Below, piece by piece: positions 15,423 through 48,406 of a stretch of DNA of 64,000 nucleotides. The translations under genes were made by a program, and so were the position numbers. This DNA comes from a virus. Lineage: Duplodnaviria > Heunggongvirae > Uroviricota > Caudoviricetes. The stretch lies in IMG/VR virus record IMGVR_UViG_3300029288_007064; one strand, written 5' to 3'. The notes below the pieces were generated by a model. The model saw only the letters and a program-made list of their open reading frames with translations. It was not told where the DNA came from and made no database searches. Each line of letters begins with the position of its first letter. Position 1 is the stretch's first letter.

Positions 15423-16199
15423 TTAGTTCCTCTTTGGTATTCCTTTCTTTTCCACTATTGCTTTCATAGCATCATAAAACTCCTTTGCTTCTTCAGGTGT
15501 TACTTCCAACCGTATTTGTGCAGTAAAAGTTACCTTATCATTATGCGGTGTTAATTCAATTTGCACATAATCGCTAAAAACACTGTCGCGTTCATATGTC
15601 TCGTAAATTTTACGAGTTCCCCCATAAATAGGGAGATGCTCCGTTTTGTCCTTATTAAGCAAGTCACATAGAGAAGTCATGCCCTTCTTTTCGTTATCTT
15701 CAACTGTTTTGTTTCTTATATATTCTTCATTTTTCTTTTCAAGGTATTGCTCTAATGTTTCTTTAGAGCCAGAATACCAGCCACCATGATACCGTCCCGA
15801 ATCTATTTGTAATGACGCATCCACAACGGTTTTCCTCACCTTTTCGCCATCTATAGTCGCTACCCATTCGTATTTAAAATATGCGTTTGCACTTACTCTC
15901 AGGACGATGTTCTTGTAATGAATGTATACCCCATGATTAGTAGTATCGAAGGTTATCGCCTCGGTTTGGAGTTTAGCGATTTCTTGCTTTATAAACTCCG
16001 TTTCATATTCCTTTCTAACTAGTTCCTTCTGCTTGTACTCTTTCTTCCTTTGGTCCCTACTAGTAGATAGGTCATCAAGGTATGTATATTGTTCCACCAA
16101 TCCTTCCATTTTCGTTTTTTCGTTTCCTTCCATATCCTTCAACTCCTTGTAAGTAATACTATGTTCCATAGGGTTTATAAAGGTATGCTTTATTCCCAT
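15423..16199 (-). CDS. hypothetical protein
   Basis: 258 aa; TATA-like TTTATAAA at 16228-16235, 29 bp upstream of its ATG. Confidence 0.45.
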   Translation of the reverse strand: MGIKHTFINPMEHSITYKELKDMEGNEKTKMEGLVEQYTYLDDLSTSRDQRKKEYKQKELVRKEYETEFIKQEIAKLQTEAITFDTTNHGVYIHYKNIVLRVSANAYFKYEWVATIDGEKVRKTVVDASLQIDSGRYHGGWYSGSKETLEQYLEKKNEEYIRNKTVEDNEKKGMTSLCDLLNKDKTEHLPIYGGTRKIYETYERDSVFSDYVQIELTPHNDKVTFTAQIRLEVTPEEAKEFYDAMKAIVEKKGIPKRN

Positions 16200-16237
16200 C
16201 TTCTACGTCGTGAATCCCTCAATCCCATTTATAAAGG

Positions 16238-16723
16238 TTATGTTGCTATTTCGGGCGAATATACGCCTATTCTAGCCATGTTTTCCTTGAACCACGTGTT
16301 AACCCCGATATAAACGAATAACAACGGCGAAAGCACCCCCACAACCACCGTATTGCCGATAAGGTGGCTTATTGTGAATGGAATCTGCCCAATAAATGCA
16401 TCCGCAAAGCTCATCGGAAATAACAACGGTCCTCCTATGACACCCGTAAGCAAATCGAATAACAACGTGCCTACAAAACTCATTCCTAGAAAGTTTATTG
16501 GATTTGCGGTAGGTTTAAAGTATGTGAAAGTTAATCCAACAATTCCCCATGCAATAAAGCACATTAAAGTCCATATACCCATCATTCCGGTTATTACATC
16601 AACTAACGCATACAACAATCCTCCCAACATGAATGCGTATTGTTTTTTAAGAAGTGGACAGAACGTAGTGGTCGCTACCATCAGCAATCCAAATGTCCAT
16701 GCAATAGTGATTGTAGTTTCCAC
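16238..16723 (-). CDS. polytopic membrane protein (ECF-transporter S-component-like size and topology; uncertain)
   Basis: 161 aa with about 5 predicted TM helices, Gly/Phe-rich. Confidence 0.35.
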   Translation of the reverse strand: METTITIAWTFGLLMVATTTFCPLLKKQYAFMLGGLLYALVDVITGMMGIWTLMCFIAWGIVGLTFTYFKPTANPINFLGMSFVGTLLFDLLTGVIGGPLLFPMSFADAFIGQIPFTISHLIGNTVVVGVLSPLLFVYIGVNTWFKENMARIGVYSPEIAT

Positions 16724-18632: not shown

Positions 18633-18652
18633 AATTTATAAACCTATGCTTT
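18633..18652 (-). promoter_or_regulatory. archaeal-type TATA-box-like promoter element (TTTATAAACCTATGCT)
   Basis: TTTATAAA at 18635-18642, 35 bp upstream of a tiny unlisted ORF (MEYGMTEEEK..., ATG at 18600) that is coupled to the 18307..18507 gene. Confidence 0.35.
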
Positions 18653-35173: not shown

Positions 35174-37348
35174 TTATATCCACTCATCTAATTTTTGTTG
35201 TGATGTTTTTGCTTTCCATCCAAGTGCTTCATAGATACGTTCTACATTATTATCAATTATTAGTGGCATTTGCTTATTCCAATCAATTTTAAAATCTTCT
35301 GGGAATTTATCATAGAAACCAACTACATTTGTCTTTGGCTTATTCGGTGGTGAAATAACATACGCCCATTTTACCTTTTCCATAGGGTCGAATGTTATTC
35401 CAAGATTATCCATAGAATATTTAATTGCTCTAACATGAATTGGTAAATTTTTATAATCTTCAAACTTTCTAGATACTGATTTTGGTATTCCTATTTCATC
35501 GTACTTTGTGTTTTTCATCATTTCTTCTTTTTCTATTGTTATGTACTTTTCTATATCTTCTTGTGTTTTTTCATCTAATAACATTCTAAACACTTTTTCT
35601 TGTATACGTTTTCCTGCTTTTGGTGTATCTGAACGTACTAATTCAAAACCAGTTACACTTAGAATATCTGCCAATTCTTTTCCATCTTTATAACAAAGAT
35701 AACCTACGTATCTTTTTTTGGCAGATGAAAAGTATATCTTACTAAATACTTTTTCGAACTCGAGGAATAACACATGCTTCTTTATTCCCTTTTGCTTAGT
35801 AAATTCCTCGAATGAATCGTTTATGTGTTTTTGTATTGTTTGTGCTTCTTTTACTACATTTTGTAATTCTTTTTCGTTTGCTTGTATAAATATACTATCC
35901 GTATCCGAAGCTTGTATCTTATATCCTTTCTCTTCTATTTTTTTTATTACAAATTTAATCACTTCTCTTCCCATATATGTTACGCTTTCGGCTGCTTCCC
36001 TCTTATAGAGACGGAATCCTGGATAACCTTGTGCTCCATACGCGGAATTTAATACACATTTTACTGCGTATTGTTTCAAATAATATGAATGATATTCAGA
36101 AGTGTTATATGGATATTTTTTCATTTCTTCTTTATATTTCTTTCTTAATTCAAACAAGTCTTTAATAACCGACGGAATGAGACCTTCCGGTGTTGATTTG
36201 AAACGATGTCCATTACCTATGTCGATATCACCATTCTTATCGTATGATTCCCCTCCGATATTGCAAGAAACGATTATACTCGGGTACAAGCTTTTCATAT
36301 CAAATACTATTACATTTTTATAAACTCCAGATGTAGGCGAATGAACATATGCGCCTTCTATCGGTTCTTCTTGTGTATGTCTTATTTTTGTCGGTAATAT
36401 AATTCCACGTTCTTTTGCTTTTCTTAAAACTAAAGTATCTATTATCATGCTATTTTGTTCTAGCATAGACCACGGACAACCGACCATTCTTCTTAATTCA
36501 TCGAAGTAGTTAATTATAGAAATCTTTTTATCCAATTCTACGATTAACTTTACGTCTTCTAAATTGTAATCAAGAAGTTTTTGTACGTCATTCTCCCACA
36601 TTTCTCCGATAGATTGCTCGTTTTTTATTTTTCCTCTTCCTAGTTCTTTTTGTGCGACGAATTCAAGTGAAAAACTTTCTAGTTGTGTAAATGCAAGTTT
36701 TTTATATGCGTTTTTCAAATCAAATACTATTCTACCTTTTAATCGAATATCATATTCTTCTCCTTTACCTATATATCCTTGCCCGAATCTACATAATTTA
36801 TTTGCATCGATTTTTAACTTTAACATTCTATTAAATAAATACTTCACATCATAGTAGACATGCCAACCCGTTATTAAATCTGGATTAGTTTTTTTAATAA
36901 AATCGAGGAATAACACTAACATGTCTTCTTCGCTTTTACATGCGTATATACTCCATTCTTCCGTTTTCTTGCTTTCTCCTTTCCATGTAAATGTTATATA
37001 TTTTTTTAATTTTGTGTCATAACAACAAATAGAAAGGATTGGTTCTGGAGTGTTTTCATCATCAATAGACATTAGCGTTTCTATATCTAGATAATTTATT
37101 CTTATGTCTTCTTTTGGCATGGGTATTTTTATTCTATCGATAAGGAAGCGTTGCAAATATGGAACATCGGCTTCAAAAGTTATTGGATAATTCTTGCGCA
37201 TATCTCTAACGTCATTTGGCTGTTGTGCTATTACTTTGTTCTTTTTATCATCATAAAAGTATGGTTGGAAATCTCTGATAGTTTCTATTTTACCATTAGC
37301 ATGGAATAATAATATGTCTTTTTGGTTTACTATTTCACAAGTAATCAT
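35174..37348 (-). CDS. polB: family B DNA polymerase with 3'-5' exonuclease domain
   Basis: 724 aa. Exo I YLDIETL; motif A DMKSLYPSII; motif B KCVLNSAYG; motif C ASDTDSIF. Confidence 0.95.
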   Translation of the reverse strand: MITCEIVNQKDILLFHANGKIETIRDFQPYFYDDKKNKVIAQQPNDVRDMRKNYPITFEADVPYLQRFLIDRIKIPMPKEDIRINYLDIETLMSIDDENTPEPILSICCYDTKLKKYITFTWKGESKKTEEWSIYACKSEEDMLVLFLDFIKKTNPDLITGWHVYYDVKYLFNRMLKLKIDANKLCRFGQGYIGKGEEYDIRLKGRIVFDLKNAYKKLAFTQLESFSLEFVAQKELGRGKIKNEQSIGEMWENDVQKLLDYNLEDVKLIVELDKKISIINYFDELRRMVGCPWSMLEQNSMIIDTLVLRKAKERGIILPTKIRHTQEEPIEGAYVHSPTSGVYKNVIVFDMKSLYPSIIVSCNIGGESYDKNGDIDIGNGHRFKSTPEGLIPSVIKDLFELRKKYKEEMKKYPYNTSEYHSYYLKQYAVKCVLNSAYGAQGYPGFRLYKREAAESVTYMGREVIKFVIKKIEEKGYKIQASDTDSIFIQANEKELQNVVKEAQTIQKHINDSFEEFTKQKGIKKHVLFLEFEKVFSKIYFSSAKKRYVGYLCYKDGKELADILSVTGFELVRSDTPKAGKRIQEKVFRMLLDEKTQEDIEKYITIEKEEMMKNTKYDEIGIPKSVSRKFEDYKNLPIHVRAIKYSMDNLGITFDPMEKVKWAYVISPPNKPKTNVVGFYDKFPEDFKIDWNKQMPLIIDNNVERIYEALGWKAKTSQQKLDEWI

Positions 37349-38535
37349 TCGGTATCACCTAACCAATCATACAATTTTCCTTGCTTCGTTTCTCCTTTTA
37401 TTCTTTCTTCTGCTATCTTAAAATATTCTGGTGAAAGTTCTATTCCAATAAAATTCCTTCCCAATGCGTCGCAAGCAATTCCAGTTGTGCCACTACCCAT
37501 AAAAGGGTCTAATACAGTGTACCCTATTTTGGTCGTGAGTTTAATTAGGTGCTCCATAAGGGCAACTGGCTTGACAGTTGGATGATTGTTGATTCGTGGA
37601 TTTAATTTCCATTCCTCTAATTCTCCTGTTTTTGAATTTACTCTTTTTTCATAACCAGAATAAAATTGATTTTGATTTCCTTCATAAACCAAATTCTCTT
37701 CCTTCTCCCCCTTACTCGTCTTCGGTATTAGAAAGAACTTGCTCAACTTCCCGAAGCACTCTTCCTGCATTAATAGGTTGGATGGGAAACGACCTTTATC
37801 ATTACACTCTCTATTTTCTGGAGCATCTTTCCTTTCAGCTTCCCCATAAACATTCGTGCTTCTTTTCTTATATTGAAAGGGGATTACTTCTTCTCCTTCT
37901 TCGTAAGGTATCCGGCACTCATCCACGTTATACCCGCCTACCCCGTGCTTCATTACATTCTCCGTTATGCTCCCCTCGCACGGCTTCTGTGCAACCACTA
38001 TCGGTTCAAACGCAGGTTTAAGGGCGGGAGTTTTCCAACCCGACCATTCCTTTGCTTGCGGGAGAGTTGGTTCTTTCCAAGTAAATTCCTTTGTGTTCTT
38101 TCCCCCGTCAGCAACATACTCCCTTCCTTCACAATTAGGGCGAGCATTAGGAGAGGGCACTCCCGTATCCTCTCCTTTTCCCCCTAACTTCTTTTCTATC
38201 AGCATCCCCAAATCCTGTGCTTTCGGGAATCCTTGCATATACACCCAACACAGTTCATCCCGTATCATAAACCCCGCATCCTCAATCCCGCAGGTCAAAC
38301 GGTGATGCGTTCTCGTTCCGCCCATAGCAAACATGAACCCGCCTGGTTTGAGAATGCGGAGAGCTTCGGTTGCCCATTTAAAATTAAATTCTTGAAAATC
38401 TTTTCCTGTTCCTATACAATCAAATTCTTTTTTCATGAAGAATAAATTATATGGTGGATCTGTTATGATTGCATCTATGCTATTCGATGGAAGTTCCTTC
38501 ATTTTCTCTATGCAATCTCCCAATATAAGTTTCAT
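37345..38535 (-). CDS. DNA methyltransferase (N6-adenine/N4-cytosine; motif IV before motif I)
   Basis: 396 aa. N-terminal IITDPPYNL (motif IV) and C-terminal VLDPFMGSGTTGIA (motif I). 4-nt overlaps with polB and with the next MTase. Confidence 0.85.
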   Translation of the reverse strand: MKLILGDCIEKMKELPSNSIDAIITDPPYNLFFMKKEFDCIGTGKDFQEFNFKWATEALRILKPGGFMFAMGGTRTHHRLTCGIEDAGFMIRDELCWVYMQGFPKAQDLGMLIEKKLGGKGEDTGVPSPNARPNCEGREYVADGGKNTKEFTWKEPTLPQAKEWSGWKTPALKPAFEPIVVAQKPCEGSITENVMKHGVGGYNVDECRIPYEEGEEVIPFQYKKRSTNVYGEAERKDAPENRECNDKGRFPSNLLMQEECFGKLSKFFLIPKTSKGEKEENLVYEGNQNQFYSGYEKRVNSKTGELEEWKLNPRINNHPTVKPVALMEHLIKLTTKIGYTVLDPFMGSGTTGIACDALGRNFIGIELSPEYFKIAEERIKGETKQGKLYDWLGDTE

Positions 38536-39566
38536 TCCAACACCGCTTGCTTATTCTCTATCATGAAATCAAATTTATCCTTTATAGCATTAACATCTCC
38601 CTTGTAAAACACATATAGTTGCTCATGCGCCTTCCCAACTTTTTTACTACCGTTGAACGTTCTAGTTGCGCGAATGGGCAACGTGCCAAACGGTTTTAAT
38701 ATTATTATTTCATTGTATTTTTTGCAACCGTTTCTTGTAAAAATATCAACCGTGCGTTCCGGAAAGTTTTTGTAATAACCACTCTTATCTCGTATATCTC
38801 CAACAACTATTGCATAAAAACTATTGTCATTTAATTTCTCTATGCTTTTCTTGATAATACTTTCATATACGGTCAAAAATGTGTCATAATCCATATTAGA
38901 TAAATCAGAAGGGTCATCACAATACGTTTCTAAATCGTGATATGGCGGACAAGTAAAAACAAAATCGAATTTTTCATTTATAGTATCTAACACTACATTG
39001 CTGTCTCCGGTGATATATGAAGGTTGATTGTTTGGTGTAATAACTTTACCTTGTTCTATATTTTCTTCTACTTGTTCCGCTCTAAGTTCTATTCCGGTGT
39101 ATTTGTAATCCAAATATGATGCTACTATTCCCCGAACGCTTCCCCCCGCGAAAGGGTCAAGTATTTTACCCTTTTTAACGCAAAACCATCTATACATTAT
39201 TTCACAAACAACAGGGTCAAAAACCGAAGTTCCTATCATGGGTTTTCTTCCGTATGCAACCCATTTTTCTTGAGTCATTAGCATGTTGCAAGGTGCGTCT
39301 CTCCCCTTTTCACTTTTAATTCCGAGCGAAAGCCAAAAATGTTTTCTATCTAACCAATAAGATTGCATTGAGTCTAAAATGCTAAAAGGTGGAACTATAA
39401 ATTTGTCAACTAATTTCTTGGGCGTTTGAACAACAAATGTTTTATTTGGGGTGCTAAGTATGGCGGGTTCTTCGGGCATTTTCTCCGTTAATTGTGTGGG
39501 TGCTACGGTTGGTATTTGTTCGTTCTGTTCGCCCGTAAAATAAGCGTCTAGTGCTTTTTGTGCCAT
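38532..39566 (-). CDS. DNA methyltransferase (motif I before motif IV)
   Basis: 344 aa. ILDPFAGGSVRGIVA (motif I) followed by FVFTCPPYHD (PPY motif IV). Confidence 0.75.
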   Translation of the reverse strand: MAQKALDAYFTGEQNEQIPTVAPTQLTEKMPEEPAILSTPNKTFVVQTPKKLVDKFIVPPFSILDSMQSYWLDRKHFWLSLGIKSEKGRDAPCNMLMTQEKWVAYGRKPMIGTSVFDPVVCEIMYRWFCVKKGKILDPFAGGSVRGIVASYLDYKYTGIELRAEQVEENIEQGKVITPNNQPSYITGDSNVVLDTINEKFDFVFTCPPYHDLETYCDDPSDLSNMDYDTFLTVYESIIKKSIEKLNDNSFYAIVVGDIRDKSGYYKNFPERTVDIFTRNGCKKYNEIIILKPFGTLPIRATRTFNGSKKVGKAHEQLYVFYKGDVNAIKDKFDFMIENKQAVLE

Positions 39567-39570
39567 AATA

Positions 39571-40062
39571 TCAACCCATCCATTGTTCTAAGTTCGTTAT
39601 TGGTTTCTTGTCTTTTATTTCAATTTTAACTTGCTCAATTTTCACTCCCAATTGTTCTGCTTGTTTTTTGTCAAAACCGAATGCCTTCACTAATCTTCTT
39701 TTTTCTTCTTCGTCAATTAATCCAATATTTTGTTTTAATTCACGTTCACTCCAATTAAAGTATCGTTTTAGAGAATCTCTCCAAAATAACAACTTTTCAT
39801 CTTTCTTACTCTTTTTCGTGAATTGCACCCAAGGTTGTTTTTGTTTTGGAATGGAATAATACATTATTGAATACCATAAGTTTTTCGGTATCCAAAATGT
39901 ATATTTATTTAATTCGTTGCATATCTTTGTATTTGGTTTATGTAATGCTAAGAAACGATTTACTATGAAAGGAGATATAGTAGTTTCGGTATTAAGTGGT
40001 GTTGCTTTAGAATAAAAATTGTTTATAAACCCGAATAAATCTTCCGCCATTATTCCACCCAA
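39571..40062 (-). CDS. hypothetical protein in replication cluster
   Basis: 163 aa, Trp/Tyr-rich. Confidence 0.35.
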   Translation of the reverse strand: MGGIMAEDLFGFINNFYSKATPLNTETTISPFIVNRFLALHKPNTKICNELNKYTFWIPKNLWYSIMYYSIPKQKQPWVQFTKKSKKDEKLLFWRDSLKRYFNWSERELKQNIGLIDEEEKRRLVKAFGFDKKQAEQLGVKIEQVKIEIKDKKPITNLEQWMG

Positions 40063-40194
40063 GTTCCTAAATTACTTTGCTTTGCGTTTGATATTTTGTG
40101 TATGCAAACCGACCCATATAATTGTCCATTCATTGATTTAGGATGCTTTAGTTTTCTATTGCATCGATAACATTTTTCTTCTTGTTCCATACAT

Positions 40195-41091
40195 TCACAT
40201 CAAATCTGATAACACTTCCAAGAATGCTAAAAAGTTTATACTTTCATCCGCAATAAATGTAGTTCGGTATAATCTTTCTGCTATTTCGATAAGTATTTTA
40301 CTTTTCTTCCTGGCTTCCATTTTTTCATTAAATACTCTATCGAATATATCTTTATATAAGTCTACATAATCTATATTATGTTCTTCTATCAATTGTTTTA
40401 TTTCCACCGTTTTCTTTTGTTTCATTAGTTCCCATATGGAATTAAAAACGCTAATATGTTCTACTAATGTTGATTTTGAAACCTTTCCGTTTTTAATAGA
40501 ATATTGTAAAGAATTTATGGTTTTTCTCAAATCAGGAAACTCACGATTTACTATATCTTTAAGTGCATCTTCCTCATATTCTATTTTCTCTTCCTTACAT
40601 ATTTTAATTAATCTATTTAGTATTTTTACTTTATCAGATGGTTTAAACTCAATAGATACTGTTCTTGAAATTAATGGTTCTATTATTTTATTCTTGTAGT
40701 TTGCAGTTAAAATAAATCTACAACTTCGTGAATACGTCTCCATTAAATTACGAAGAGATTGTTGCGCTTCACCAGTCATTCCGTCTGCTTCATCAAGACA
40801 TACTATGCGGATTTTATTATCTGAAACACATGCAAATGCTTTTATCTTATCACGAACTACTTGAATACCACGTTCGTCTGAAGAATTTAAAATTAAAACA
40901 TTAGACCCTATTTTATTTGCTATTATACGAGCCAATGTCGATTTACCAGTACCAGCTTTGCCATGAAATAACAAATGAGGAAGTTTTTCTTGTGGTGATT
41001 CTATCATGGAAATTATTTGATGCTTTATTGCATCATCTAGAATCATGTCGTCCAATTCTTTTGGTCTCCATTTTTCGCACAAGATATTCAT
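40195..41091 (-). CDS. replication factor C small-subunit-like clamp loader AAA+ ATPase
   Basis: 298 aa. WRPKELDD (RFC box II), PHLLFHGKAGTGKST (Walker A), CLDEADGM (DEAD), ISRTV (SRC-like). Confidence 0.9.
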   Translation of the reverse strand: MNILCEKWRPKELDDMILDDAIKHQIISMIESPQEKLPHLLFHGKAGTGKSTLARIIANKIGSNVLILNSSDERGIQVVRDKIKAFACVSDNKIRIVCLDEADGMTGEAQQSLRNLMETYSRSCRFILTANYKNKIIEPLISRTVSIEFKPSDKVKILNRLIKICKEEKIEYEEDALKDIVNREFPDLRKTINSLQYSIKNGKVSKSTLVEHISVFNSIWELMKQKKTVEIKQLIEEHNIDYVDLYKDIFDRVFNEKMEARKKSKILIEIAERLYRTTFIADESINFLAFLEVLSDLM

Positions 41092-41846
41092 GCCTTCGCC
41101 TCTTCTGTTTTTACCTCTTCATCTACTGTGAACGGTGGACATACATTAGTAAACTTCATTCCGTTCTTTTCGTAGTAAGTTTGCATTGGACCACCTTCCA
41201 TCATGGAAACTTTTATTTTTCCATTTGCATTGGCGAATAGACTTTCAAATCCAGCTTTGAAATAGGATTTTATATTGCCGACTCCAACAATAGATGTCTT
41301 TTCTACAAAATAATCCATTTTTCTATCACCAGAGCAAATATAAAGTTGCCCGTCTTTTATTCCAACTTCGTATATGGAATCCTTTCCTATTGCACCCGCA
41401 TTTGATATCGCATCTTGGAATAACTCAACATTTATATCAAACGTGTGTGTATATGGAATTGTTTTTGACATTTTAGCAACTTGGACATAATCCTTAGCTG
41501 GCATAACAAAATATGCTTCTTTTTCCCCAGCTTTAATAAGCAAGCGGTTATCTTGCGTTGCTACAGTAATCTTTTTCTTGAACCTTCCTAAATATCCAAT
41601 AAGTTTTACAATATCTATCGTAGATATGAATTCTTCGGGTTGTCCTTCAAAAGATGAAATAATCGCTTTTGGCATCTCTGCTTTTACCATTCTAGTCACT
41701 TCTGGGTTTTTAGCAGAACAAACCAAACCATCGGGAGAATATTCTATAAGAATTTCGACTATTTTCCCGTCATCACTACCCTTTATACCTTCGAGGTATT
41801 CCACTAGTGTTTCGACATCTATGTTAAATTTCATTTCAATCACCAT
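41088..41846 (-). CDS. PCNA-like sliding clamp (candidate)
   Basis: 252 aa, the size of a two-domain PCNA, between RFC and primase with 4-nt overlap. No decisive motif by eye. Confidence 0.5.
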   Translation of the reverse strand: MVIEMKFNIDVETLVEYLEGIKGSDDGKIVEILIEYSPDGLVCSAKNPEVTRMVKAEMPKAIISSFEGQPEEFISTIDIVKLIGYLGRFKKKITVATQDNRLLIKAGEKEAYFVMPAKDYVQVAKMSKTIPYTHTFDINVELFQDAISNAGAIGKDSIYEVGIKDGQLYICSGDRKMDYFVEKTSIVGVGNIKSYFKAGFESLFANANGKIKVSMMEGGPMQTYYEKNGMKFTNVCPPFTVDEEVKTEEAKA

Positions 41847-42887
41847 TTATACGTACACATTATGATTACAATCTTTGAAAAAACAAAAACCATTTTGCAC
41901 CAAAGTTTGATGCGAAGGGAAGAACCAATCATCACCCTTCTTCCTATAAACGTATTCCAATTGATTTTCACATTTCTTTCCATTGTACCTCTCATGTATT
42001 TTTCCTACACAATGATAATATTTTTCTGATATCAAATATTTCTTCAGAACACTATCTATCATTTTTAATGTATAACCCGTTTCCATCAAATATGTAATAA
42101 TGACTCCTCTCTCCCTGTGATTAGGGTTCCCCTTTTTTAAATGGTACGCAACACACTTGGGGAGGGAGGATAAAAACTTGTCATCTTTAACTTCCGCAAT
42201 AACATCTTCATTTACTTGAGCATTTTGCAAGTTATTCGTAAAGAATTTGGAATAACCTTCTAGTTTCAATAATTTTTCTCCTTCTATTTTATAGGATTTA
42301 CGCTGTTGTTTTGCTATTTCAGAGATTTGTTCTTCTGAAAGAGACAGCAATTCGTCACCGGAGAGTGGAATAGCATACCTCATACGTTTTGTATTCAGAG
42401 TAAAGGGTATTGTTGCTATTCGTGCTAAATCACCTACTACTTGGTGGTCTACGGTCACATCTAATTCTTTTTCCAAATAAAATTGGAATCCTCTTAATTC
42501 TGTTTTATCTGTAGTTTCTTCTGTAAAAACGTAAATATGAAATCCCTTACCGGAAAAAATAACTACATGCTTTATATTTCTTTCTATGAGCCACTTGTGG
42601 ATTTTTCTTGCGTTGGAAATGCCGTCATCCAAATCTATGAAAACAGACGTTATGCTAGGTGTTCTGTTTTTGTCATGATAATCATATACCGTTGCAAAAC
42701 AACGTGTTGTTCCATTTGTTTTGTTTATTAAATCCGATAACTCATTCATATTATTTACTTTGATTCTGTACGGGCGAGCGAATTCCCGTGGAAATTTATT
42801 ATAAAGTATCTTTAGTAGCCCCATCTTCCTTCCCCTCCTCTTCAAGCAAATCTTCGTCATCTGTCCAATGTGAACACGTTTCTGCAT
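41847..42887 (-). CDS. archaeo-eukaryotic primase (AEP) superfamily primase / PrimPol-like with C-terminal Cys/His cluster
   Basis: 346 aa. Motif I VFIDLDD, motif II SGKGFHIYV, motif III HQVVGDLARIATIPFTLNTK. Start may be an internal Met (42824 or 42749) because of overlap with the next ORF. Confidence 0.7.
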   Translation of the reverse strand: MQKRVHIGQMTKICLKRRGRKMGLLKILYNKFPREFARPYRIKVNNMNELSDLINKTNGTTRCFATVYDYHDKNRTPSITSVFIDLDDGISNARKIHKWLIERNIKHVVIFSGKGFHIYVFTEETTDKTELRGFQFYLEKELDVTVDHQVVGDLARIATIPFTLNTKRMRYAIPLSGDELLSLSEEQISEIAKQQRKSYKIEGEKLLKLEGYSKFFTNNLQNAQVNEDVIAEVKDDKFLSSLPKCVAYHLKKGNPNHRERGVIITYLMETGYTLKMIDSVLKKYLISEKYYHCVGKIHERYNGKKCENQLEYVYRKKGDDWFFPSHQTLVQNGFCFFKDCNHNVYV

Positions 42888-43095
42888 TTAATTGATATTG
42901 ATGAACCATTCCACACATTGAACATTTATACAACATAATAGTAGTAAGATTATATTTTGGGTCTCTAGGCATACCCATACAACATTTGTTTCTAACTTCT
43001 TCTGACCTATATTGCTTACCACAGGTTTGACAAATATAAAAAGTAATGGGAATAGCACGAATAACTTTTTGCTTATTCCCTTCTTCTGTGGTCAT
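42799..43095 (-). CDS. zinc-ribbon protein
   Basis: 98 aa; CQTCG...CSMCG. Confidence 0.4.
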   Translation of the reverse strand: MTTEEGNKQKVIRAIPITFYICQTCGKQYRSEEVRNKCCMGMPRDPKYNLTTIMLYKCSMCGMVHQYQLNAETCSHWTDDEDLLEEEGKEDGATKDTL

Positions 43096-43115
43096 TATGT
43101 ATCACCCTATATATA

Positions 43116-44000
43116 CTATTCTCCCAACGGTTTTAGTTCTTTTATTTTATCAAAAGTTAATTCTTCAATTGGTGTTGTAGGTGGTCTCCTTATTCCACAT
43201 TTTTCACATACTGCTATATATTTTCCATTTGATTTCTTCATATTAAAAATTAAATCAGAAGAGAAAGGAATATCTTTTTGGCATCTAATTTTTTCCTTAT
43301 TCTGTGCAAGAGCATTCCCTACTTGATATTCAGGTACGGACTTTTCTCTTGCTGTGAATACTACAAAAATTCCTTTCTTAACAAGAGAACGTAGTATTCT
43401 TACTATACCATCATGTTTATTTGTAGCTACTTTCCAGTCGAGTTGACTCAATACTGTTTGCATATCAGCATCAGCACGTGCTTCTCCTTTCTTTGTTCGC
43501 ATAGTTGATAATTTATCAAACATATAAGCCATGCACCATCCCCAACAATCAGTTACACTATCAATTACTAATGTTCCTCCTTTTATTTTTCCACTATTTA
43601 CCGCCTTTACATAAGATGAAAGAAAATCCGTTAAGTTATTTATGCTAGCAACTTCATCAAATATATCATCCATGCTTCTATTTACATTCTCTTTTATTTC
43701 TGTTGGTTCAAATACATATATTTTCTTTCCTTTATGAAGCTGTTTAGTATTAATTGCTCTGTTTTCTGTATCAATAACAAATATAGGTTCCTGGAATGTA
43801 AATGCAGTAAAAGTTTTTCCTGTAGCGGTATCCCCGTACAAAAGAGTAACAAAACCTCTCTTCTTTACATCTTCTTCGGTTATTTCTTCAAACCCTTCGT
43901 ATGTAAATGGATCATCAGAAACTTCTTCTTTCTTTGGTAAAGAAGAAGGAGAAGAAGATGGAATTTTTATTCCATCAAGTACTCCTACCATACTTACCAT
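43116..44000 (-). CDS. RecA-superfamily P-loop ATPase (Sak4/AAA_24-like or DnaB-core-like; exact family unresolved)
   Basis: 294 aa. Walker A LLYGDTATGKTFTA; Walker B-like TLVIDSVTD; C-terminal CEKCG zinc ribbon. Confidence 0.5.
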   Translation of the reverse strand: MVSMVGVLDGIKIPSSSPSSLPKKEEVSDDPFTYEGFEEITEEDVKKRGFVTLLYGDTATGKTFTAFTFQEPIFVIDTENRAINTKQLHKGKKIYVFEPTEIKENVNRSMDDIFDEVASINNLTDFLSSYVKAVNSGKIKGGTLVIDSVTDCWGWCMAYMFDKLSTMRTKKGEARADADMQTVLSQLDWKVATNKHDGIVRILRSLVKKGIFVVFTAREKSVPEYQVGNALAQNKEKIRCQKDIPFSSDLIFNMKKSNGKYIAVCEKCGIRRPPTTPIEELTFDKIKELKPLGE

Positions 44001-45010
44001 TCTCCTGTTACCTTAGTTGGCTCTGCTACTTCCTCGTTTTTCTTTACGAACTCCGGAGATAACCAATAAAGTATAGAATTTGCTGCGATACTTTTAGTTT
44101 CTGCATTATATCCAGAAATTTCGCAAAGAATATTTATAGAATAATTTTCAACTATTCTTTGTCCATTCAATGTTTGTGCATATACCTTTATTTGAGATAT
44201 TGTATCAAAATCTGGGGTATCTAAGGTTATCTCATATTTCTTATCATCACCAACATCCCCTCTTACGTTTTGCACTAGGAAGTTTTTTAACAAAACCCTA
44301 GAGTTTTTGTTATCTTTTATTTTAATTAATTCATCAAAACTTCCTTCTTTGCTATAATCTATTGTCAAAACATCTTTGCAAAATAGTTCTGAAATAGTTG
44401 ATATTTCTTCTGGTTTTGCTTTTTCTAGAACCTTTGCATCGTTTCCATACAATTGATAATACATTTTATTTTCTGTAGACCACTTAGTTATTTTTTGTGC
44501 TCTAACAACTATCTCGTGTCCGATAATTATTTTATTTGCTATTTCTGGTAACCGTATTTCTAAATCTACTGGGATTATCTTACCATTTACATTCGTAACG
44601 CAATAAAATATCGCTTTAAAATCTTGTGTGGGGATTACTTTTCCTGCCCTTTTTGCATCGGTATATAAGTAATTTCCCTCATCATCTATCATTCCAAGAT
44701 TTATTGCTTCTTCTTTTCCTTTACTAGATATTACTCTTTTTATTTTATCACGACTTTTTTTTGCCCAATCAATGGATGTAGAACCCAATACTATTAATGA
44801 AACATTCTCAATTCCTTGCCTAGTTTTCAATTTCAAAGAAGACCTTGTTCTTTCATACGCTCTCTCTTTAATGACTTCTTCGGGTGCTTCAATAGTTTCC
44901 TTTAGAGTTTTAAAATTTTCCTCAAAAAGCCCCGTTACTTCCTCAAAATTCAATCCGGTTTTCTGGGCTAGCGCCCTCAACTTTTCATTCATCGTATCAC
45001 CGATTAACAA
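43994..45010 (-). CDS. hypothetical replication-cluster protein, possible OB-fold ssDNA-binding protein
   Basis: 338 aa; first gene next to the iteron region; beta-rich repeated segments. Weak call. Confidence 0.3.
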   Translation of the reverse strand: MLIGDTMNEKLRALAQKTGLNFEEVTGLFEENFKTLKETIEAPEEVIKERAYERTRSSLKLKTRQGIENVSLIVLGSTSIDWAKKSRDKIKRVISSKGKEEAINLGMIDDEGNYLYTDAKRAGKVIPTQDFKAIFYCVTNVNGKIIPVDLEIRLPEIANKIIIGHEIVVRAQKITKWSTENKMYYQLYGNDAKVLEKAKPEEISTISELFCKDVLTIDYSKEGSFDELIKIKDNKNSRVLLKNFLVQNVRGDVGDDKKYEITLDTPDFDTISQIKVYAQTLNGQRIVENYSINILCEISGYNAETKSIAANSILYWLSPEFVKKNEEVAEPTKVTGEW

Positions 45011-45124
45011 TAGTATTCGCTTACCTTATTTAAATACTTTGTGGTACTCCTTTTTGTTTATAAATCTACGTTAATTTAGTATTTTTAAAACTCCACTTTC
45101 TATAACTAATTTATGCAATCTTTT

Positions 45125-45336
45125 CTTCGACGTGAAATTTAATTTCTACGACGTAAAAGTTTAAATTTTAAACCAAAACATCAAAAAATATTTTTCTACC
45201 GTCGTGAAATTTGGTTTAAAAAATAAACCACGAACACGGAAATATAAATTCACCGTCGTGACGGTTTAAAAATTAAACCACTTTTGCGAAAAATAAAAAT
45301 TTACCGTCGTAAATTCCGGTTTAAAAATTAAACCGG
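45125..45336. repeat. iteron array: four ~51-55 bp direct repeats, each with a CCGTCGTGA-type box and a GGTTTAAAAATTAAACC palindrome (putative replication origin)
   Basis: Palindromes centred near 45166, 45221, 45271 and 45326. CGTCGT boxes at 45128, 45148, 45200, 45253 and 45303, with another at 45494. Lies between divergent replication genes and the plus-strand block. Confidence 0.7.
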
Positions 45337-45578
45337 ATATCAACACCGCTATTTTATACTAACTATAACGAATAGGCAAAGGTTTAAGAAACCTTGTGAA
45401 AACAAAGATTTAAATAACTTTGCAAAGAAGAATTATTGAAACTATTATTTTGTTGAACACGTTTCTACCGCCATGTTTTTGGCGACCAAAATATTCACTG
45501 TCGTAAAATGTCGGAAAAAGCAAAGGATTAAAAAGAGGGACTACCTAATATAAGAGATTGGAAGAATAGGTGATTGGA

Positions 45579-45749
45579 ATGGGTCCGAAAAAATGTACTT
45601 TTTGTGGAAAAGAATTAAGATATAAAGATGGGATTTTTTGTAAAACTGATTTAGAATGTAAAAAAGTAAGAGCTCTTGAAACTATTGCGGATAGACTCCT
45701 TTCTATTGAATGTATTCTTGAAAATATTTATAATACATTAGAAAAATAA
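45579..45749 (+). CDS. zinc-ribbon protein
   Basis: 56 aa MGPKKCTFCGKELRYKDGIFCK...; preceded by AGGTGATTGG SD-like sequence. Confidence 0.35.
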   Translation: MGPKKCTFCGKELRYKDGIFCKTDLECKKVRALETIADRLLSIECILENIYNTLEK

Positions 45750-45767
45750 ACTTCAATAATTATTAAG

Positions 45768-45989
45768 GTGATTAGAATGGAAAACAAAGAATGGAGAAAA
45801 ATAATTTATGATGATTATGGTAGAGCTACTCCCAAAAGTGGTATATTTGTTCGAGAAGATACCGATTTCGTCTACTTAATGACAAATGAAGAGAAAAATA
45901 TAATAGAAGCAATTCAGAAAAAGAAAATAGTTCGAATGGAAATTAGAATGGATGAAACATCTTCCAAAGAAGGTGAGCGGGATGTCTAA
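45768..45989 (+). CDS. small hypothetical protein
   Basis: 73 aa. Confidence 0.3.
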   Translation: MIRMENKEWRKIIYDDYGRATPKSGIFVREDTDFVYLMTNEEKNIIEAIQKKKIVRMEIRMDETSSKEGERDV

Positions 45990-47349
45990 CTATGATGTGT
46001 TACTAGATGCTTATATAAAGTTATTCAAAGAAAGAGTAGCACTTAGTGAGCGTCTTATCAAACCGTATCTTCATGTCTTTCTTGGTCAAGCATTGTGTAA
46101 TTATACTCGAACAGATTCAAATAAAAAGAAAGAATATTATTTTAGAACATCAGGTTACTATTCCGCAATAGGAGAAACTATTGTTTCTAATCGTATAAAT
46201 ATTTTTTCTTATCAATCAACAGGAACCGGAAAAGGAATCGTAATGAAATTTAATCGTACTTTATTCGATGCGTATGGAATATCTTCTATTTATGCAGATT
46301 CTTCTGTTAGTTCACAATGGCTTAAAGGAGGCAATGATACGCAAAGCAAACAAACAAAATGGATCGATGGCACTCTACAAGGATATCATTGTGTAATGTG
46401 GTCAGAAGGAGAAAATATTGTTCAGCCAAACAAACAAGAATATGGAGATTTTGGTACGACTTTACGTTCCGTATTGGATGAACCTGGAGAGTACTCTTTC
46501 GGAACAAGAAAGGATTTAAATAAAGACGGAACTTCACCTATTTTTTATACGAACGCTAGTATCTGTTCAGCCGCTATCATTAATCAAACAACGCTTAATA
46601 ATTCCATCCTTAGTAATGGTACTCTTCAAAGGTTTCTATTGACTTATAATTTACTTTCAAAAGAAGAAAGTGCAAAACTAAGAGACGAAATAGATAATAG
46701 AGATGCAACGACCAAATATTATAATGAAAAAGAAGAAGAATTAAAAAAGTTTTGTGATATAGCAAAAGGAATCATTACACCATTAAAAAATAAAAACGAC
46801 CATTGGAACAAAATAGGTTTTAATTTATCTATCATGAAAGACTATTCGAGAGGAAGAAGGGAAATTGAAGATAAAATTTTAGAGCAATTTCCAGATGGCG
46901 AAAAACAAAATTTAATGCAAGGTTTTTTCAATAGAAACATTATGTATGATAAAAAAATAGCTAGTCAAGTCGCAATTATTAACGGATGTTCGGAAATAGG
47001 TTTAGATGAGCTTAAGATAGGGACAGAAATTGCTATAAAAGGAATGGATGCAATTTCATCTTTATTTACAAAAAAATATCTACCTTCGTTAGATAAAGAC
47101 GACGCAGTCCGTTTGCTTATTATTTATAACGCAATCGAACTTATTACGCAAGAAGGCAAAGTTCCTACGCAAAGTAGACTTGTTTTTGCTTTGCTAAATT
47201 TATTTAAAAAGGATTGGGATTTAGGAGAGAATAGAACTAAAGACTTTCTTACAGATTTAGTTGCGGGAAAGTATCTAATTTTAAAGAAAGGCGAGAGAAA
47301 CGCAAATATTTATCAAGTTCCTCTCACGGCAGCAAATAATCCATCATAG
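45952..47349 (+). CDS. candidate replication initiator: divergent AAA+-like protein with C-terminal winged-helix-like region (likely start at ATG 45982)
   Basis: 465 aa. Degenerate Walker A QSTGTGKG, Walker B-like VLDEPGE about 85 aa later, sensor-1-like FYTNAS. Flanked on both sides by repeat-rich non-coding regions. Confidence 0.35.
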   Translation: MKHLPKKVSGMSNYDVLLDAYIKLFKERVALSERLIKPYLHVFLGQALCNYTRTDSNKKKEYYFRTSGYYSAIGETIVSNRINIFSYQSTGTGKGIVMKFNRTLFDAYGISSIYADSSVSSQWLKGGNDTQSKQTKWIDGTLQGYHCVMWSEGENIVQPNKQEYGDFGTTLRSVLDEPGEYSFGTRKDLNKDGTSPIFYTNASICSAAIINQTTLNNSILSNGTLQRFLLTYNLLSKEESAKLRDEIDNRDATTKYYNEKEEELKKFCDIAKGIITPLKNKNDHWNKIGFNLSIMKDYSRGRREIEDKILEQFPDGEKQNLMQGFFNRNIMYDKKIASQVAIINGCSEIGLDELKIGTEIAIKGMDAISSLFTKKYLPSLDKDDAVRLLIIYNAIELITQEGKVPTQSRLVFALLNLFKKDWDLGENRTKDFLTDLVAGKYLILKKGERNANIYQVPLTAANNPS

Positions 47350-47367
47350 ATAAAATCGTAGAACTTC

Positions 47368-47686
47368 CAGTTATTTAATTTTTAAGCCAGTTATTTACTA
47401 GTTCTATGGGCACGTTCTACGTCGTTAAATTTCAGTTATTTAAATAACTAAACTATATAAAAAACACCGTCGAGCGCCAACCTTGATTTCTCGGTATACA
47501 ATCCACAAATACAAGCGTGTAAACAAGATATTCACGTCTGAGAACTAGGTAATACAAGAACCGTGTAACTAGTTTTTTTATATCTCCTTATAGTTGTTTA
47601 TAAATAACTAAATAACTGGCATGTTTTCACGACGTAAAACTAAGAAAAAACCACCCTTAAATAACTGTAAATAACTAAATAACTGA
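47368..47686. repeat. non-coding region with about 9 copies of AAATAACT/AGTTATTT in two inverted clusters, a perfect 16-bp palindrome AGTTATTTAAATAACT (47434-47449) and inverted ACGTCG boxes
   Basis: Left cluster AGTTATTT at 47369, 47389 and 47434. Right cluster AAATAACT at 47602, 47610, 47659, 47669 and 47677. CGTCGTTAAA at 47420 versus CGACGTAAAA at 47630. Confidence 0.65.
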
Positions 47687-47863
47687 TTAAACGGTCGCAA
47701 ACGCCCTTTTTAGCGTACTTGCCTTATTTTAATAGTGGATTAGGGACACCCTAAGATAATCGAAATTTACCCCCTTGTAGGCGGTGTAGTTTAGGTTAGA
47801 ACCTATTTTCAGGATTAGATTATATCACTATAAAAAGAAAGAAAAAGAAGATAAAGAAGGAAT

Positions 47864-48406
47864 TTACTCCTTCTTCATGGCATCTGCACGCTCACGTGCT
47901 TGCTTTGCCTTGGCTTCGTATTTCGCTGCAATCTTGTTTCTCCTATCTGCAGCATCCTCTAGTTTCTTTGCCTTGTCGGATTCGCGCTTTGCCTTGTTCT
48001 TAGCACGCTCCTTTGCCTTGGCTTCCTTTTCTGCCTCACGCTTCTCCTTGCGCTCCGCTCTCGCTGCCTTATTGGATGCACCGAAAACAAGAACTTTGGA
48101 ACCGTCCTTATTTGCTTGCTCCACATCCGCCCTAAGCTGGTCAAAAAGGTCTCCTCTCAGCATCGACTTAATCTTGGAAGCGTACTGGTTGGTCAACACC
48201 TTACCTTTCAATTCGTCTTTAAGGTCTTCCGTCAAAACGCTTTTCCCGAGCCTGCGGTTCTTGTATGGACGCCCTGCCCTTTCCTCAAGATACCGCGCCA
48301 TATCCTTTTTCTCGGCGTCAGACATCTTTACTTCCTCGCCCATCCTCATTTTTACGAGGAACGGCTTCACTTTCTTTCCTATTGCTTCAAATTCTTGGTC
48401 ATTCAT
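47864..48406 (-). CDS. highly charged Lys/Glu/Ala-rich protein (possible nucleic-acid-binding)
   Basis: 180 aa. C-terminal half is a KEKREAEKEAKAKERAK-type low-complexity helix. TTTAAATA element 27 bp upstream. Confidence 0.4.
   Translation of the reverse strand: MNDQEFEAIGKKVKPFLVKMRMGEEVKMSDAEKKDMARYLEERAGRPYKNRRLGKSVLTEDLKDELKGKVLTNQYASKIKSMLRGDLFDQLRADVEQANKDGSKVLVFGASNKAARAERKEKREAEKEAKAKERAKNKAKRESDKAKKLEDAADRRNKIAAKYEAKAKQARERADAMKKE

What the first reader, a model, noticed from the sequence alone, without database searches (positions are those of the whole stretch)
45011..45578. Iteron array with periodic palindromes at the strand-switch point: candidate replication origin
Four direct repeats of about 51-55 bp each combine a (C)CGTCGTGA/CGTCGTAAA box with the palindrome GGTTTAAAAATTAAACC. 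The palindromes are centred near 45166, 45221, 45271 and 45326, roughly five helical turns apart.
Further CGTCGT/ACGACG boxes lie at 45128, 45148 and 45494. A 7-bp stem hairpin AAGGTTTAAGAAACCTT sits at about 45390.
The array lies exactly where transcription switches from the minus-strand replication genes to the plus-strand block. Periodic iterons next to replication genes are the classic origin architecture.
Basis: seen in the sequence. Interest (0 to 1): 0.7.

Follow-up and report, generated by a model that had tools for sequence, protein, structure and literature searches.

The report
Accessory repeat array beside phage origin
The repeats are real, but they look like an accessory control array; the replication origin proper most likely lies 2 kb to the right, just after a gene for an MCM-like helicase that probably loads itself there.

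Summary
At 45122-45335 there are four tandem units of about 52 bp. Each unit is a box (TTyTAC(C)GWCGTrAA) followed by the palindrome GGTTTAA-AAA-TTAAACC, and further boxes lie nearby. The array is far beyond chance, and boxes and palindromes are kept while the spacers drift.

Immediately after its stop codon (47362-47690) lies a dyad-symmetric array of nine exact AGTTATTTA 9-mers. The same spacing grammar follows the homologous gene in L004/5 and L003. A looser dyad array flanks it in L010 and L089. Each lineage has its own 8-10-mer. This is the SaPI Rep/ori layout, and it is the best origin candidate.

The flagged array consists of tandem copies of the "box + palindrome" module that forms the inner part of each origin half. 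It lacks dyad symmetry, lacks the cognate 9-mer, and is absent from relatives. It is most likely an accessory regulatory or control array over the divergent promoters. Its binding proteins are unknown.

The parts
44993..45578 (.). IGR1: a 586-bp divergent intergenic region. It lies between the minus-strand replisome operon (first gene 43994-44992) and the plus-strand helicase operon.
   Evidence: It is one of the two largest non-coding gaps in the window.
45122..45137 (+). Box U0 (TTTCTTCGACGTGAAA), with no full palindrome partner.
   Evidence: PWM score 21.3.
45143..45174 (+). Unit 1: box TTTCTACGACGTAAAA plus palindrome (A)GTTTAAATTTTAAAC(C).
45194..45229 (+). Unit 2: box TTCTACCGTCGTGAAA plus palindrome GGTTTAAAAAATAAACC.
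45248..45279 (+). Unit 3: box ATTCACCGTCGTGACG plus palindrome GGTTTAAAAATTAAACC.
45299..45337 (+). Unit 4: box ATTTACCGTCGTAAAT plus palindrome TCCGGTTTAAAAATTAAACCGGA, which has 10-bp arms.
45379..45395 (.). Palindrome AAGGTTTAAGAAACCTT, with 7-bp arms.
45411..45419 (-). A single exact copy of the origin 9-mer (TAAATAACT). It abuts the -35 hexamer of the predicted plus-strand promoter.
   Evidence: My own back-of-envelope estimate, not a tool result, puts the chance of a copy in IGR1 at roughly 0.03.
45420..45448 (+). Promoter-like site TTGCAA-17-TATTAT for the helicase operon. This is a consensus match only.
45493..45508 (+). Box-like site ATTCACTGTCGTAAAA in the presumed 5' leader. A weaker TTTCTACCGCCATG lies at 45462-45475.
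   Evidence: PWM score 16.2, family D7.
45056..45069 (-). GTAGATTTATAAAC, a candidate promoter motif for the minus-strand replisome operon. It resembles the dispersed motif ATAGGTTTATAAAT.
   Evidence: This is inference only.
45579..45749 (+). 56-aa protein with CxxC-11-C-5-C followed by an amphipathic helix. It is the first gene of the plus operon and is not found in relatives.
   Evidence: no family hit.
45777..45989 (+). 70-aa protein. A small protein occupies the same position in relatives, but no sequence similarity to L004's is detectable. Its end overlaps the helicase start.
45982..47349 (+). MCM-family AAA+ helicase, 455 aa from the called start (465 aa from 45952), with a C-terminal winged helix. 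It is the putative self-loading initiator-helicase.
47362..47449 (+). Left arm of the origin candidate. It holds AGTTATTTA at 47369, 47389 and 47434, a degenerate copy at 47400, box GTTCTACGTCGTTAAA at 47414-47429, and the inner palindrome AGTTATTTAAATAACT at 47434-47449.
47450..47591 (.). Origin centre (142 bp). It is bordered by TATATAAAAAAC and GTTTTTTTATAT and has a box-like site at 47530-47545 (-).
47592..47690 (-). Right arm of the origin candidate. It holds the inner palindrome AGTTGTTTA/TAAATAACT (47592-47609), TAAATAACT at 47609, 47658, 47668 and 47676, and an inverted box at 47624-47640.
47851..47878 (-). Terminator-like hairpin closing the upstream minus-strand operon, before it would run into the origin region.

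Best explanation
The flagged array is an accessory cis-element of a phage replication-initiation locus, not the origin proper.

The locus has three parts, in this order:
- IGR1, which holds the array.
- A small operon of 56-aa, 70-aa and MCM-like helicase genes.
- IGR2.

The helicase has an MCM-type AAA+ motor and a C-terminal winged helix. By analogy with SaPI Rep proteins, its winged helices would bind the 9-mer AGTTATTTA. That 9-mer forms two inverted sets immediately 3' of the gene, at 47362-47690. Two hexamers would assemble there facing each other, melt the low-stability inner borders and start bidirectional replication.

Each half of that origin has an inner module made of a box followed by a palindrome. 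The flagged array is four tandem, same-orientation copies of that module type, plus extra boxes. The copies are phased at about five helical turns and lie between the two divergent promoters.

I infer that the box-binding factor, together with a dimeric protein that recognises GGTTTAA half-sites, assembles a phased nucleoprotein complex there. The dimeric protein could be the helicase winged helix at lower affinity or a small operon-encoded regulator. The complex would set expression of the initiator operon and the divergent replisome operon (autoregulation). It might also pair with the origin 2.1 kb away, as control arrays do in iteron replicons.

Shown: the repeats, the module homology, the helicase fold, and the conserved dyad grammar with lineage-specific iterons.
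Inferred: who binds what, and the regulatory outcome.
For: - The array is non-random, and within it boxes and palindromes are conserved while spacers drift.
- Its units align with the inner module of the IGR2 element of this phage, of L004 and of L003. The box PWM finds its best window hits in IGR1 and IGR2. In L010 its best hit lies in the equivalent downstream element, score 19.7 in 5.4 kb.
- The neighbouring gene is an MCM-like helicase with a C-terminal winged helix.
- Nine of the 11 exact AGTTATTTA copies in 64 kb lie at 47369-47684, in two inverted sets.
- The start-to-start spacing 20/11/34 | about 150 | 8/30-50/10/8 recurs after the homologous gene in L004/5 (GGTTTTTCG) and L003 (GGTTTCCT).
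- L010 (GCGATTTTAA) and L089 (CAGTTTATCG) also carry inverted arrays next to the gene.
- The helicase winged-helix region is its most diverged part, 31-36% identity against 56% in the motor.
- The layout matches published SaPI Rep/ori and Cch2 (PMC9371898; PMC7581432). The pRN1 arrangement of repressor, Rep and a downstream origin is also similar (PMC4234260).
- The array lacks dyad symmetry and the cognate 9-mer, and has no counterpart in the relatives' IGR1.
- One exact 9-mer abuts the predicted -35 of the helicase operon.
Against: - No binding data exist, and the box binder is unknown.
- The palindrome half-site GGTTTAA differs from the cognate 9-mer, so binding by the helicase is speculative.
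- The promoters are consensus guesses in a region where such matches are at chance frequency.
- The array ends about 85 bp upstream of the predicted -35 rather than overlapping it.
- In one distant lineage (L089) the dyad origin-like element lies upstream of the helicase operon. An upstream position is therefore not in itself excluded for an origin.
- The IGR2 centre is not AT-rich: GC is 0.37-0.38 against about 0.30 in the arms. This is unlike SaPI origins.
- The accessory role is argued mainly by exclusion and analogy.
Confidence: 0.5

Rival explanations
1. The flagged array is itself a functional origin, either primary or second. An initiator would bind the phased repeats, wrap the DNA and open a neighbouring AT-rich stretch. 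Lambda O protein does this at four palindromic iterons, and SPP1 uses two origin copies.
For: - The array has tandem phased repeats next to replication genes and next to the initiator-helicase operon.
- The units are homologous to origin modules and carry the origin box.
- IGR1 contains 40-mers in the least-stable 1% of the window: -41.1 and -41.9 kcal/mol against a -42.1 threshold.
- In L089 the origin-like dyad lies upstream of the helicase operon.
Against: - There is no dyad arrangement, although the dyad is the conserved feature of this helicase family's sites in five lineages.
- The cognate 9-mer is absent from the array.
- No such array occurs at this position in L002, L004/5 or L010.
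- GC skew shows no global inflection.
- IGR2 has the less stable, symmetric inner borders, ranked 7th and 15th in the window.
Confidence: 0.17
2. The array is a pure transcriptional operator or enhancer array for a dedicated small regulator. The regulator could be the 56-aa zinc-ribbon/coiled-coil protein or the 70-aa protein, encoded first in the operon. It would control the divergent promoters and have no role in replication initiation. pRN1 ORF56 and CopG-type repressors, which sit ahead of rep genes, are the model.
For: - The array sits between divergent operons, and its sites are palindromic, which suits dimers.
[quoted passage not shown] It is flanked by promoter-like TTTATAAAGG motifs, which suggests a transcription-factor site.
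- The 56-aa gene and the array are both unique to this phage among the relatives.
- pRN1 provides a precedent.
Against: - The box recurs symmetrically in both arms and at the centre of the origin candidate, and in the L010 origin-like element. This ties it to initiation.
- The units align with origin modules.
- The small proteins give no family hit, so DNA binding is unproven.
Confidence: 0.2
3. The array is a set of tandem phage-specific promoters, for example N4-type hairpin promoters with a 7-bp stem and 3-nt loop, driving the plus-strand genes.
For: - Palindromes 3 and 4 can form hairpins with a 7-10-bp stem and 3-nt loop as single strands, at -4.2 and -8.7 kcal/mol.
- All units point towards the plus operon.
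Against: - The motif occurs nowhere else in 64 kb except for one degenerate copy in IGR2.
- The distance from box to palindrome centre varies between 17 and 21 nt.
- No virion-type RNA polymerase was recognised. The 2591-aa ORF hits only DUF2341.
- The stems are AT-only and weak.
- The dispersed promoter-like motif of this phage is a different sequence, ATAGGTTTATAAAT.
Confidence: 0.04
4. The array is a centromere-like partition site or a packaging or attachment site, or else a recent tandem duplication with no function.
For: - Partition sites and pac sites are often tandem phased repeats in intergenic regions.
- The two-unit 105-bp duplication shows that the array grew by duplication.
Against: - No ParA/ParB, integrase or terminase family was recorded on any gene within about 10 kb on either side.
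- Selective retention of box and palindrome columns against drifting spacers argues against neutrality.
- The box links the array to the origin element.
Confidence: 0.09

Closest known systems
SaPI/PICI replication origins with self-loading Rep helicases (Ubeda et al. 2007, as summarised in PMC9371898 and PMC7581432)
   Same: - The initiator is a hexameric-helicase-type AAA+ protein with a C-terminal winged helix.
- Short iterons start immediately after the rep stop codon.
- The iterons form two sets in opposite orientation around a centre.
- The iteron sequence is element-specific.
- One SaPI Rep type (Rep2, SaPIbov1-like) is also SF6/MCM-like.
   Different: - The iterons here are 8-10 nt, not 5-6.
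- The centre is not AT-rich. Only two 12-nt AT-only borders are.
- A second conserved palindromic box (ACG-W-CGT) sits in each arm.
- The element sits in a phage-like contig of at least 94 kb with its own PolB, clamp and clamp loader, not in a satellite.
- An extra tandem array of origin modules (the flagged finding) lies upstream of the operon.
Control or second repeat arrays of iteron replicons: P1 oriR-repA-incA, F incB/incC, P4 ori plus crr, and Rep-dimer inverted-repeat operators of pPS10/pSC101. This comparison rests on my own knowledge and was not checked in a paper here.
   Same: - The initiator gene is flanked by two repeat clusters, one the origin and one accessory.
- The accessory sites resemble the origin sites without being identical to them.
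- The accessory array lies in the rep promoter region.
   Different: - Those initiators are RepA/pi/alpha-type proteins, not MCM-like helicases.
- The accessory arrays there carry the same iteron as the origin. Here only the box is shared and the palindrome differs.
- No evidence for handcuffing or autoregulation exists here.
pRN1 replicon: orf56 repressor, orf904 Rep with a winged helix, and an origin 3' of the rep gene (PMC4234260)
   Same: - Small proteins are encoded first in the operon.
- The Rep has a helicase domain plus a winged helix.
- The essential cis element lies immediately downstream of rep.
- The upstream promoter region is required.
   Different: - The pRN1 Rep is a prim-pol plus SF3 helicase.
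- Its origin is a 100-nt stem-loop without iterons.
- Its host is an archaeon.
Archaeal and eukaryotic MCM proteins, and phage DUF3987 helicases
- The closest structural neighbours among viral models (BFVD predicted structures) are DUF3987 helicases and primase-helicases.
   Different: - There is no N-terminal OB/zinc domain.
- The window protein gets no Pfam hit.
- tblastn finds no match in 50,697 deposited phage genomes.

Membership tests
Iteron-type origin (applied to the flagged array, 45122-45335) | Three or more regularly spaced direct repeats of one sequence. | tested here: met
   There are four units at 50-55 bp spacing, plus extra boxes.
Iteron-type origin (applied to the flagged array, 45122-45335) | The repeats are the cognate recognition sequence of the adjacent initiator. 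| tested here: not met
   The 9-mer that tracks the helicase gene across lineages (AGTTATTTA) occurs 9 times in IGR2 and is absent from the array. The palindrome half-site in the array is GGTTTAA.
Iteron-type origin (applied to the flagged array, 45122-45335) | Position and architecture are conserved in related replicons. | tested here: not met
   IGR1 of L004/5, L002 and L010 has no box or palindrome array. The three repeats in L002 are the dispersed motif ATAGGTTTATAAA.
Iteron-type origin (applied to the flagged array, 45122-45335) | An adjacent DNA-unwinding element. | tested here: inconclusive
   The least-stable 40-mers in IGR1 are -41.1 and -41.9 kcal/mol, which places them in the top 1% of the window. 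They are weaker than the IGR2 borders, at -39.4 and -39.8.
Iteron-type origin (applied to the flagged array, 45122-45335) | Replication starts there, or the initiator binds there. | not testable with these tools
   This needs EMSA or footprinting, origin-activity assays or 2D gels.
SaPI-type origin of a self-loading Rep helicase (applied to 47362-47690) | Rep is a helicase-type AAA+ protein with a C-terminal winged helix. | tested here: met
SaPI-type origin of a self-loading Rep helicase (applied to 47362-47690) | Iterons lie immediately downstream of the rep ORF. | tested here: met
   The stop codon ends at 47349 and the first 9-mer starts at 47369. The same holds in L004 (4488/4492) and L003 (1601/1610).
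SaPI-type origin of a self-loading Rep helicase (applied to 47362-47690) | At least two iterons on each side of a centre, pointing in opposite directions. | tested here: met
   There are 3 plus-strand copies and an inner palindrome on the left, and 5 minus-strand copies and an inner palindrome on the right. The centre is 142 bp.
SaPI-type origin of a self-loading Rep helicase (applied to 47362-47690) | An AT-rich centre. | tested here: inconclusive
   Centre GC is 0.37-0.38 against about 0.30 in the arms. The two inner borders are the 7th and 15th least stable 40-mers in 64 kb.
SaPI-type origin of a self-loading Rep helicase (applied to 47362-47690) | The iteron sequence is element-specific and co-varies with the Rep C-terminal domain. 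| tested here: met
   Five lineages carry five different 8-10-mers. The winged-helix region shows 31-36% identity against 56% in the motor.
SaPI-type origin of a self-loading Rep helicase (applied to 47362-47690) | Penta- or hexanucleotide iterons, with the element a phage satellite. | tested here: not met
   The iterons are 8-10 nt. The contig is 93,958 bp and carries PolB, a clamp, a clamp loader and a primase-like gene.
MCM family (SF6 AAA+) | An AAA+ core closest to MCM, with Walker A, Walker B and an arginine-finger motif. | tested here: met
MCM family (SF6 AAA+) | An N-terminal OB-fold/zinc domain, and a match to Pfam MCM at the curated threshold. | tested here: not met
   The N-terminus is about 55 aa of helices. 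The window protein has no Pfam hit. Only 5 of 55 relatives give weak MCM hits and 10 of 55 weak DUF3987 hits.
N4-type hairpin promoters | A 5-7-bp stem with a 3-nt loop, plus a virion RNA polymerase in the genome. | tested here: not met
   The stem and loop geometry is met by palindromes 3 and 4. No RNA polymerase was recognised in the window, and the motif is confined to this locus.

The most novel reading that the evidence does not exclude
The array would be a new kind of origin-control element for a viral MCM-type self-loading helicase. It would be a tandem set of same-orientation half-origin modules acting in one of two ways. It could be a handcuffing or titration locus that pairs with the true origin 2 kb away. 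Or it could be a pad that loads several helicase hexamers in one orientation. In either case it would depend on a conserved, still unidentified protein that recognises the ACG-W-CGT box shared by origins of different iteron specificity.
Probability: 0.2. Interest if true: 0.65.

Novelty: new variant of a known kind. Interest (0 to 1): 0.45.

Why it matters
Origins of uncultivated large phages are almost never located. This locus offers a testable pair: an MCM-like helicase with a winged helix, and a dyad array of 9-mers. The spacing grammar is conserved in three lineages (this phage, L004/5, L003). The 8-10-mer itself changes in all five lineages examined. That is a natural specificity-swap series for studying how self-loading helicases read origins.

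It would extend the SaPI Rep/ori principle from satellites to a phage that carries a full archaeo-eukaryotic-style replisome: MCM-like helicase, AEP-like primase, PCNA-like clamp, RFC-like loader and PolB.

The flagged array adds two open questions. What binds the conserved box? And why does one lineage carry four extra tandem origin modules over its divergent promoters?

For annotation, the lesson is practical. The most eye-catching repeat array at a strand switch is not necessarily the origin.

Tried and rejected
- blastn of 43000-48000 and tblastn of the helicase against 50,697 deposited phages gave no match.
- The search for related loci found no relatives. I tried the helicase, the 338-aa ORF (43994-45010) and alignment A2 in IMG/VR, and A2 in GTDB genomes. 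Alignment A3 was too diverse to use.
- Exact scans of IMG/VR for the palindrome gave 59 single hits, and for the box 17 single hits. A metagenome scan for tandem GGTTTAAA gave 120 or more hits. None lies near an MCM-like gene by tblastn, so all are chance matches.
- Rfam gave nothing at gathering or at E up to 1, and there are no tRNAs.
- The first AF2 run, with 4 sequences, was unusable at pLDDT 51. The 55-sequence alignment fixed it.
- I considered and dropped the idea that the L002 upstream repeats conserve the array. They are a different, dispersed motif.
- I considered and dropped N4-like hairpin promoters.
- The 332-aa and 70-aa neighbours show no detectable similarity to their positional counterparts, so they could not be used as anchors.
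- The L087 and L088 contigs end right after the gene and give no context.
- The sigma-70 promoter scan is at chance level in this region, 20 found against 18.3 expected. The promoter assignments are therefore weak.

Full report
**Observation.**
The flagged sequence is as described. From 45122 to 45335 there are two leading boxes and then four composite units.
- The leading boxes are TTTCTTCGACGTGAAA and TTTCTACGACGTAAAA.
- Each unit is a box of the form TTyTAC(C)GTCGTrAA, then 1-6 nt, then the palindrome GGTTTAA-AAA-TTAAACC.
- The palindromes sit at 45158-45174, 45213-45229, 45263-45279 and 45318-45334. That gives 8 hits at up to 3 mismatches against 0.85 expected, and no shuffle reaches 8.
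- TRF and the repeat finder show a period of about 50 and a 105-bp two-unit duplication.
- A position-weight matrix of the box gives 11 hits scoring 15 or more in the window, against 0.195 expected.
- When the four units are aligned, 20 of the 21 invariant columns lie in the box and palindrome and one in the spacer.
- The box is itself an imperfect palindrome, TTTTnACG-W-CGTnAAAA.
- As single strands the AT-only hairpins are weak, at -2.4 to -8.7 kcal/mol.

**Context.**
Almost every gene in the 64 kb is on the minus strand. The only plus-strand block is 45579-47349, with genes of 56 aa, 70 aa and 455/465 aa. GC skew simply follows this 1.8-kb island, and cumulative skew otherwise falls monotonically. 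There is therefore no replication-type inflection.

The island is bracketed by the two largest non-coding gaps in the window, of 559 and 527 bp. The next largest is 234 bp.

To the left lies a replisome operon. It contains:
- a Sak4-like ATPase;
- an AEP primase-like protein (weak match);
- a PCNA-like clamp;
- an RFC/gp44-like clamp loader;
- two DNA methyltransferases;
- a family-B polymerase.

The sequence matches no deposited phage.

**The neighbouring protein.**
The protein has Walker A (GTGKG), Walker B (VLDEPG) and LQRF motifs. A whole-library HMMER search gave 76 relatives. With 55 of them the AlphaFold model reached pLDDT 91.6.
- Foldseek against the PDB returns MCM subunits first, at E 4.5e-12.
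- There is no MCM N-terminal OB/zinc domain and no Pfam hit for this sequence. Some relatives hit DUF3987 or MCM weakly.
- The closest structural neighbours among viral models (BFVD) are phage DUF3987 helicases and primase-helicases.

**The second non-coding region.**
The 9-mer AGTTATTTA occurs exactly 11 times in the window, and 9 of these copies lie at 47369-47684.
- Three plus-strand copies and a head-to-head palindrome lie on the left.
- The centre is 142 bp.
- On the right lie a second head-to-head palindrome and four further minus-strand copies (five minus-strand copies in all).
- A box sits in each arm in mirror orientation (47414+, 47625-), and a box-like site lies at the centre (47530-).

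In the only close relatives of the helicase (47-48% identity), the same place holds the same grammar with another word: GGTTTTTCG in L004/L005 and GGTTTCCT in L003/L002. The left-arm start-to-start spacings are 20/11/33-34, and the right-arm spacings are 8/31-49/10-11/8-9.

Two more distant lineages show looser inverted arrays next to the gene. L010 (39% identity) has inverted GCGATTTTAA copies plus a near-identical box, ATTCTACGACGTTAAA. L089/L090 (32%) has about twenty CAGTTTATCG/CGATAAACTG copies in two inverted arms around an AT-rich centre, this time upstream of the gene.

The helicase's winged-helix region is its most diverged part, at 31-36% identity against 56% in the motor. The two inner borders of the window's element are the 7th and 15th least stable 40-mers in 64 kb.

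**Comparison with the literature.**
SaPI Rep proteins are self-loading helicases whose C-terminal winged helix binds short iterons. Six to twelve iterons lie immediately downstream of rep. They form two oppositely oriented sets around an AT-rich centre, and two hexamers are thought to load there. One Rep type is SF6/MCM-like (PMC9371898; PMC7581432).

The element at 47362-47690 meets these layout criteria. It departs in three ways: iteron length (8-10 nt), an AT-rich centre that is missing, and the fact that it sits in a large phage rather than a satellite. I therefore rate it the best origin candidate, at about 0.75.

**What the flagged array is.**
Its units align with the inner "box + palindrome" module of the origin candidate in this phage, in L004 and in L003. 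The box links IGR1, IGR2 and the L010 element. So the array belongs to the initiation system.

Four things argue against it being the origin itself:
- All units point the same way, so there is no dyad.
- The palindrome half-site (GGTTTAA) is not the cognate 9-mer.
- Nothing comparable exists upstream of the operon in L004/5, L002 or L010.
- The L002 upstream repeats turned out to be a different, dispersed motif, ATAGGTTTATAAAT. This motif also occurs at 9354 and 18634 in the window.

The array lies between a candidate minus-strand promoter motif (45056-45069) and a consensus plus-strand promoter (45420-45448), whose -35 abuts one exact origin 9-mer. A further box lies in the presumed leader at 45493. 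[quoted passage not shown]

**Mechanism proposed.**
The origin proper is IGR2. There the helicase's winged helices would read the 9-mers and two hexamers would assemble facing each other.

The flagged array is an accessory control element. Box-binding and palindrome-binding proteins would form a phased complex with a repeat of about five helical turns over the divergent promoters. That complex would couple expression of the initiator operon and the replisome operon to origin-factor levels, and might pair with the origin. The layout is like the repeat arrays that flank rep genes in iteron replicons (my own knowledge) and like the pRN1 arrangement of repressor, Rep and a downstream origin (PMC4234260).

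The binders and the regulatory outcome are inferred. Confidence is about 0.5.

Rivals:
- the array is a second or primary origin (0.17);
- it is a pure operator array for a small regulator such as the 56-aa zinc-ribbon protein (0.20);
- it is a set of tandem promoters (0.04);
- it is a partition or packaging site, or neutral duplication (0.09).

**Verdict.**
It is a new variant of a known kind: a SaPI-like origin of a self-loading helicase in an unsampled phage clade, with an unusual accessory module array. Interest is moderate.

Noticed in passing
window 47362-47690: A dyad-symmetric array of nine exact AGTTATTTA/TAAATAACT 9-mers lies immediately after the helicase gene. It has mirror-image boxes. 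Its spacing grammar is conserved in L004/5 and L003, and looser dyad arrays flank the gene in L010 and L089. It is the best origin candidate.
   Followed up: yes
window 35174-47349: The replication genes have an archaeo-eukaryotic flavour. They are a family-B polymerase, an RFC/gp44-like clamp loader, a PCNA-like clamp (41088-41846), an AEP PriS/PriL-like protein (41847-42887, weak match) and an MCM-like helicase. There is also a Sak4-like ATPase.
   Followed up: partly
window 9354-9367 and 18634-18647 (minus strand); L002 2031-2075: The exact 14-mer ATAGGTTTATAAAT occurs twice on the gene-sense strand in this phage. A 13-nt version occurs three times upstream of the helicase operon in L002. 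It may be a phage promoter with a T4-late-like TATAAAT core.
   Followed up: partly
window 16170-16240: An isolated high-scoring box (CTTCTACGTCGTGAAT, 16200-16215) lies directly upstream of the start of gene 15423-16199. Two TTTATAAAGG motifs flank it. This suggests that the box binder also acts at a promoter elsewhere.
   Followed up: partly
window 45579-45749: The first gene of the plus operon encodes a 56-aa protein with CxxC-11-C-5-C followed by an amphipathic helix. It has no counterpart in the related loci. It is a candidate small DNA-binding regulator.
   Followed up: no
L002 2343-2909: A GIY-YIG (homing-endonuclease-type) gene is inserted between the small gene and the helicase gene in one relative.
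   Followed up: no
L002 (end), L087, L088: Metagenomic contigs of relatives stop inside the iteron array or right after it, downstream of the helicase gene. The repeats may be breaking the assemblies.
   Followed up: no
window 55607-63382: A 2591-aa minus-strand ORF has no PHROG hit and only a DUF2341 Pfam record. Its function is unknown.
   Followed up: no
window 47700-47860: About 160 bp of further non-coding sequence lies between the right origin arm and the terminator-like hairpin at 47851-47878. It contains small palindromes (TAGGGACACCCTA, AGGTTAGAACCT). There is no Rfam match.
   Followed up: partly
L006 5340-5560 and 6040-6480: A distant relative (helicase 26% identical) has dense CTTTATATA/TATATAAAG repeats in both orientations in a divergent region about 3.5 kb upstream of the helicase gene. 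It also has tRNA-like sequence just before the operon.
   Followed up: no
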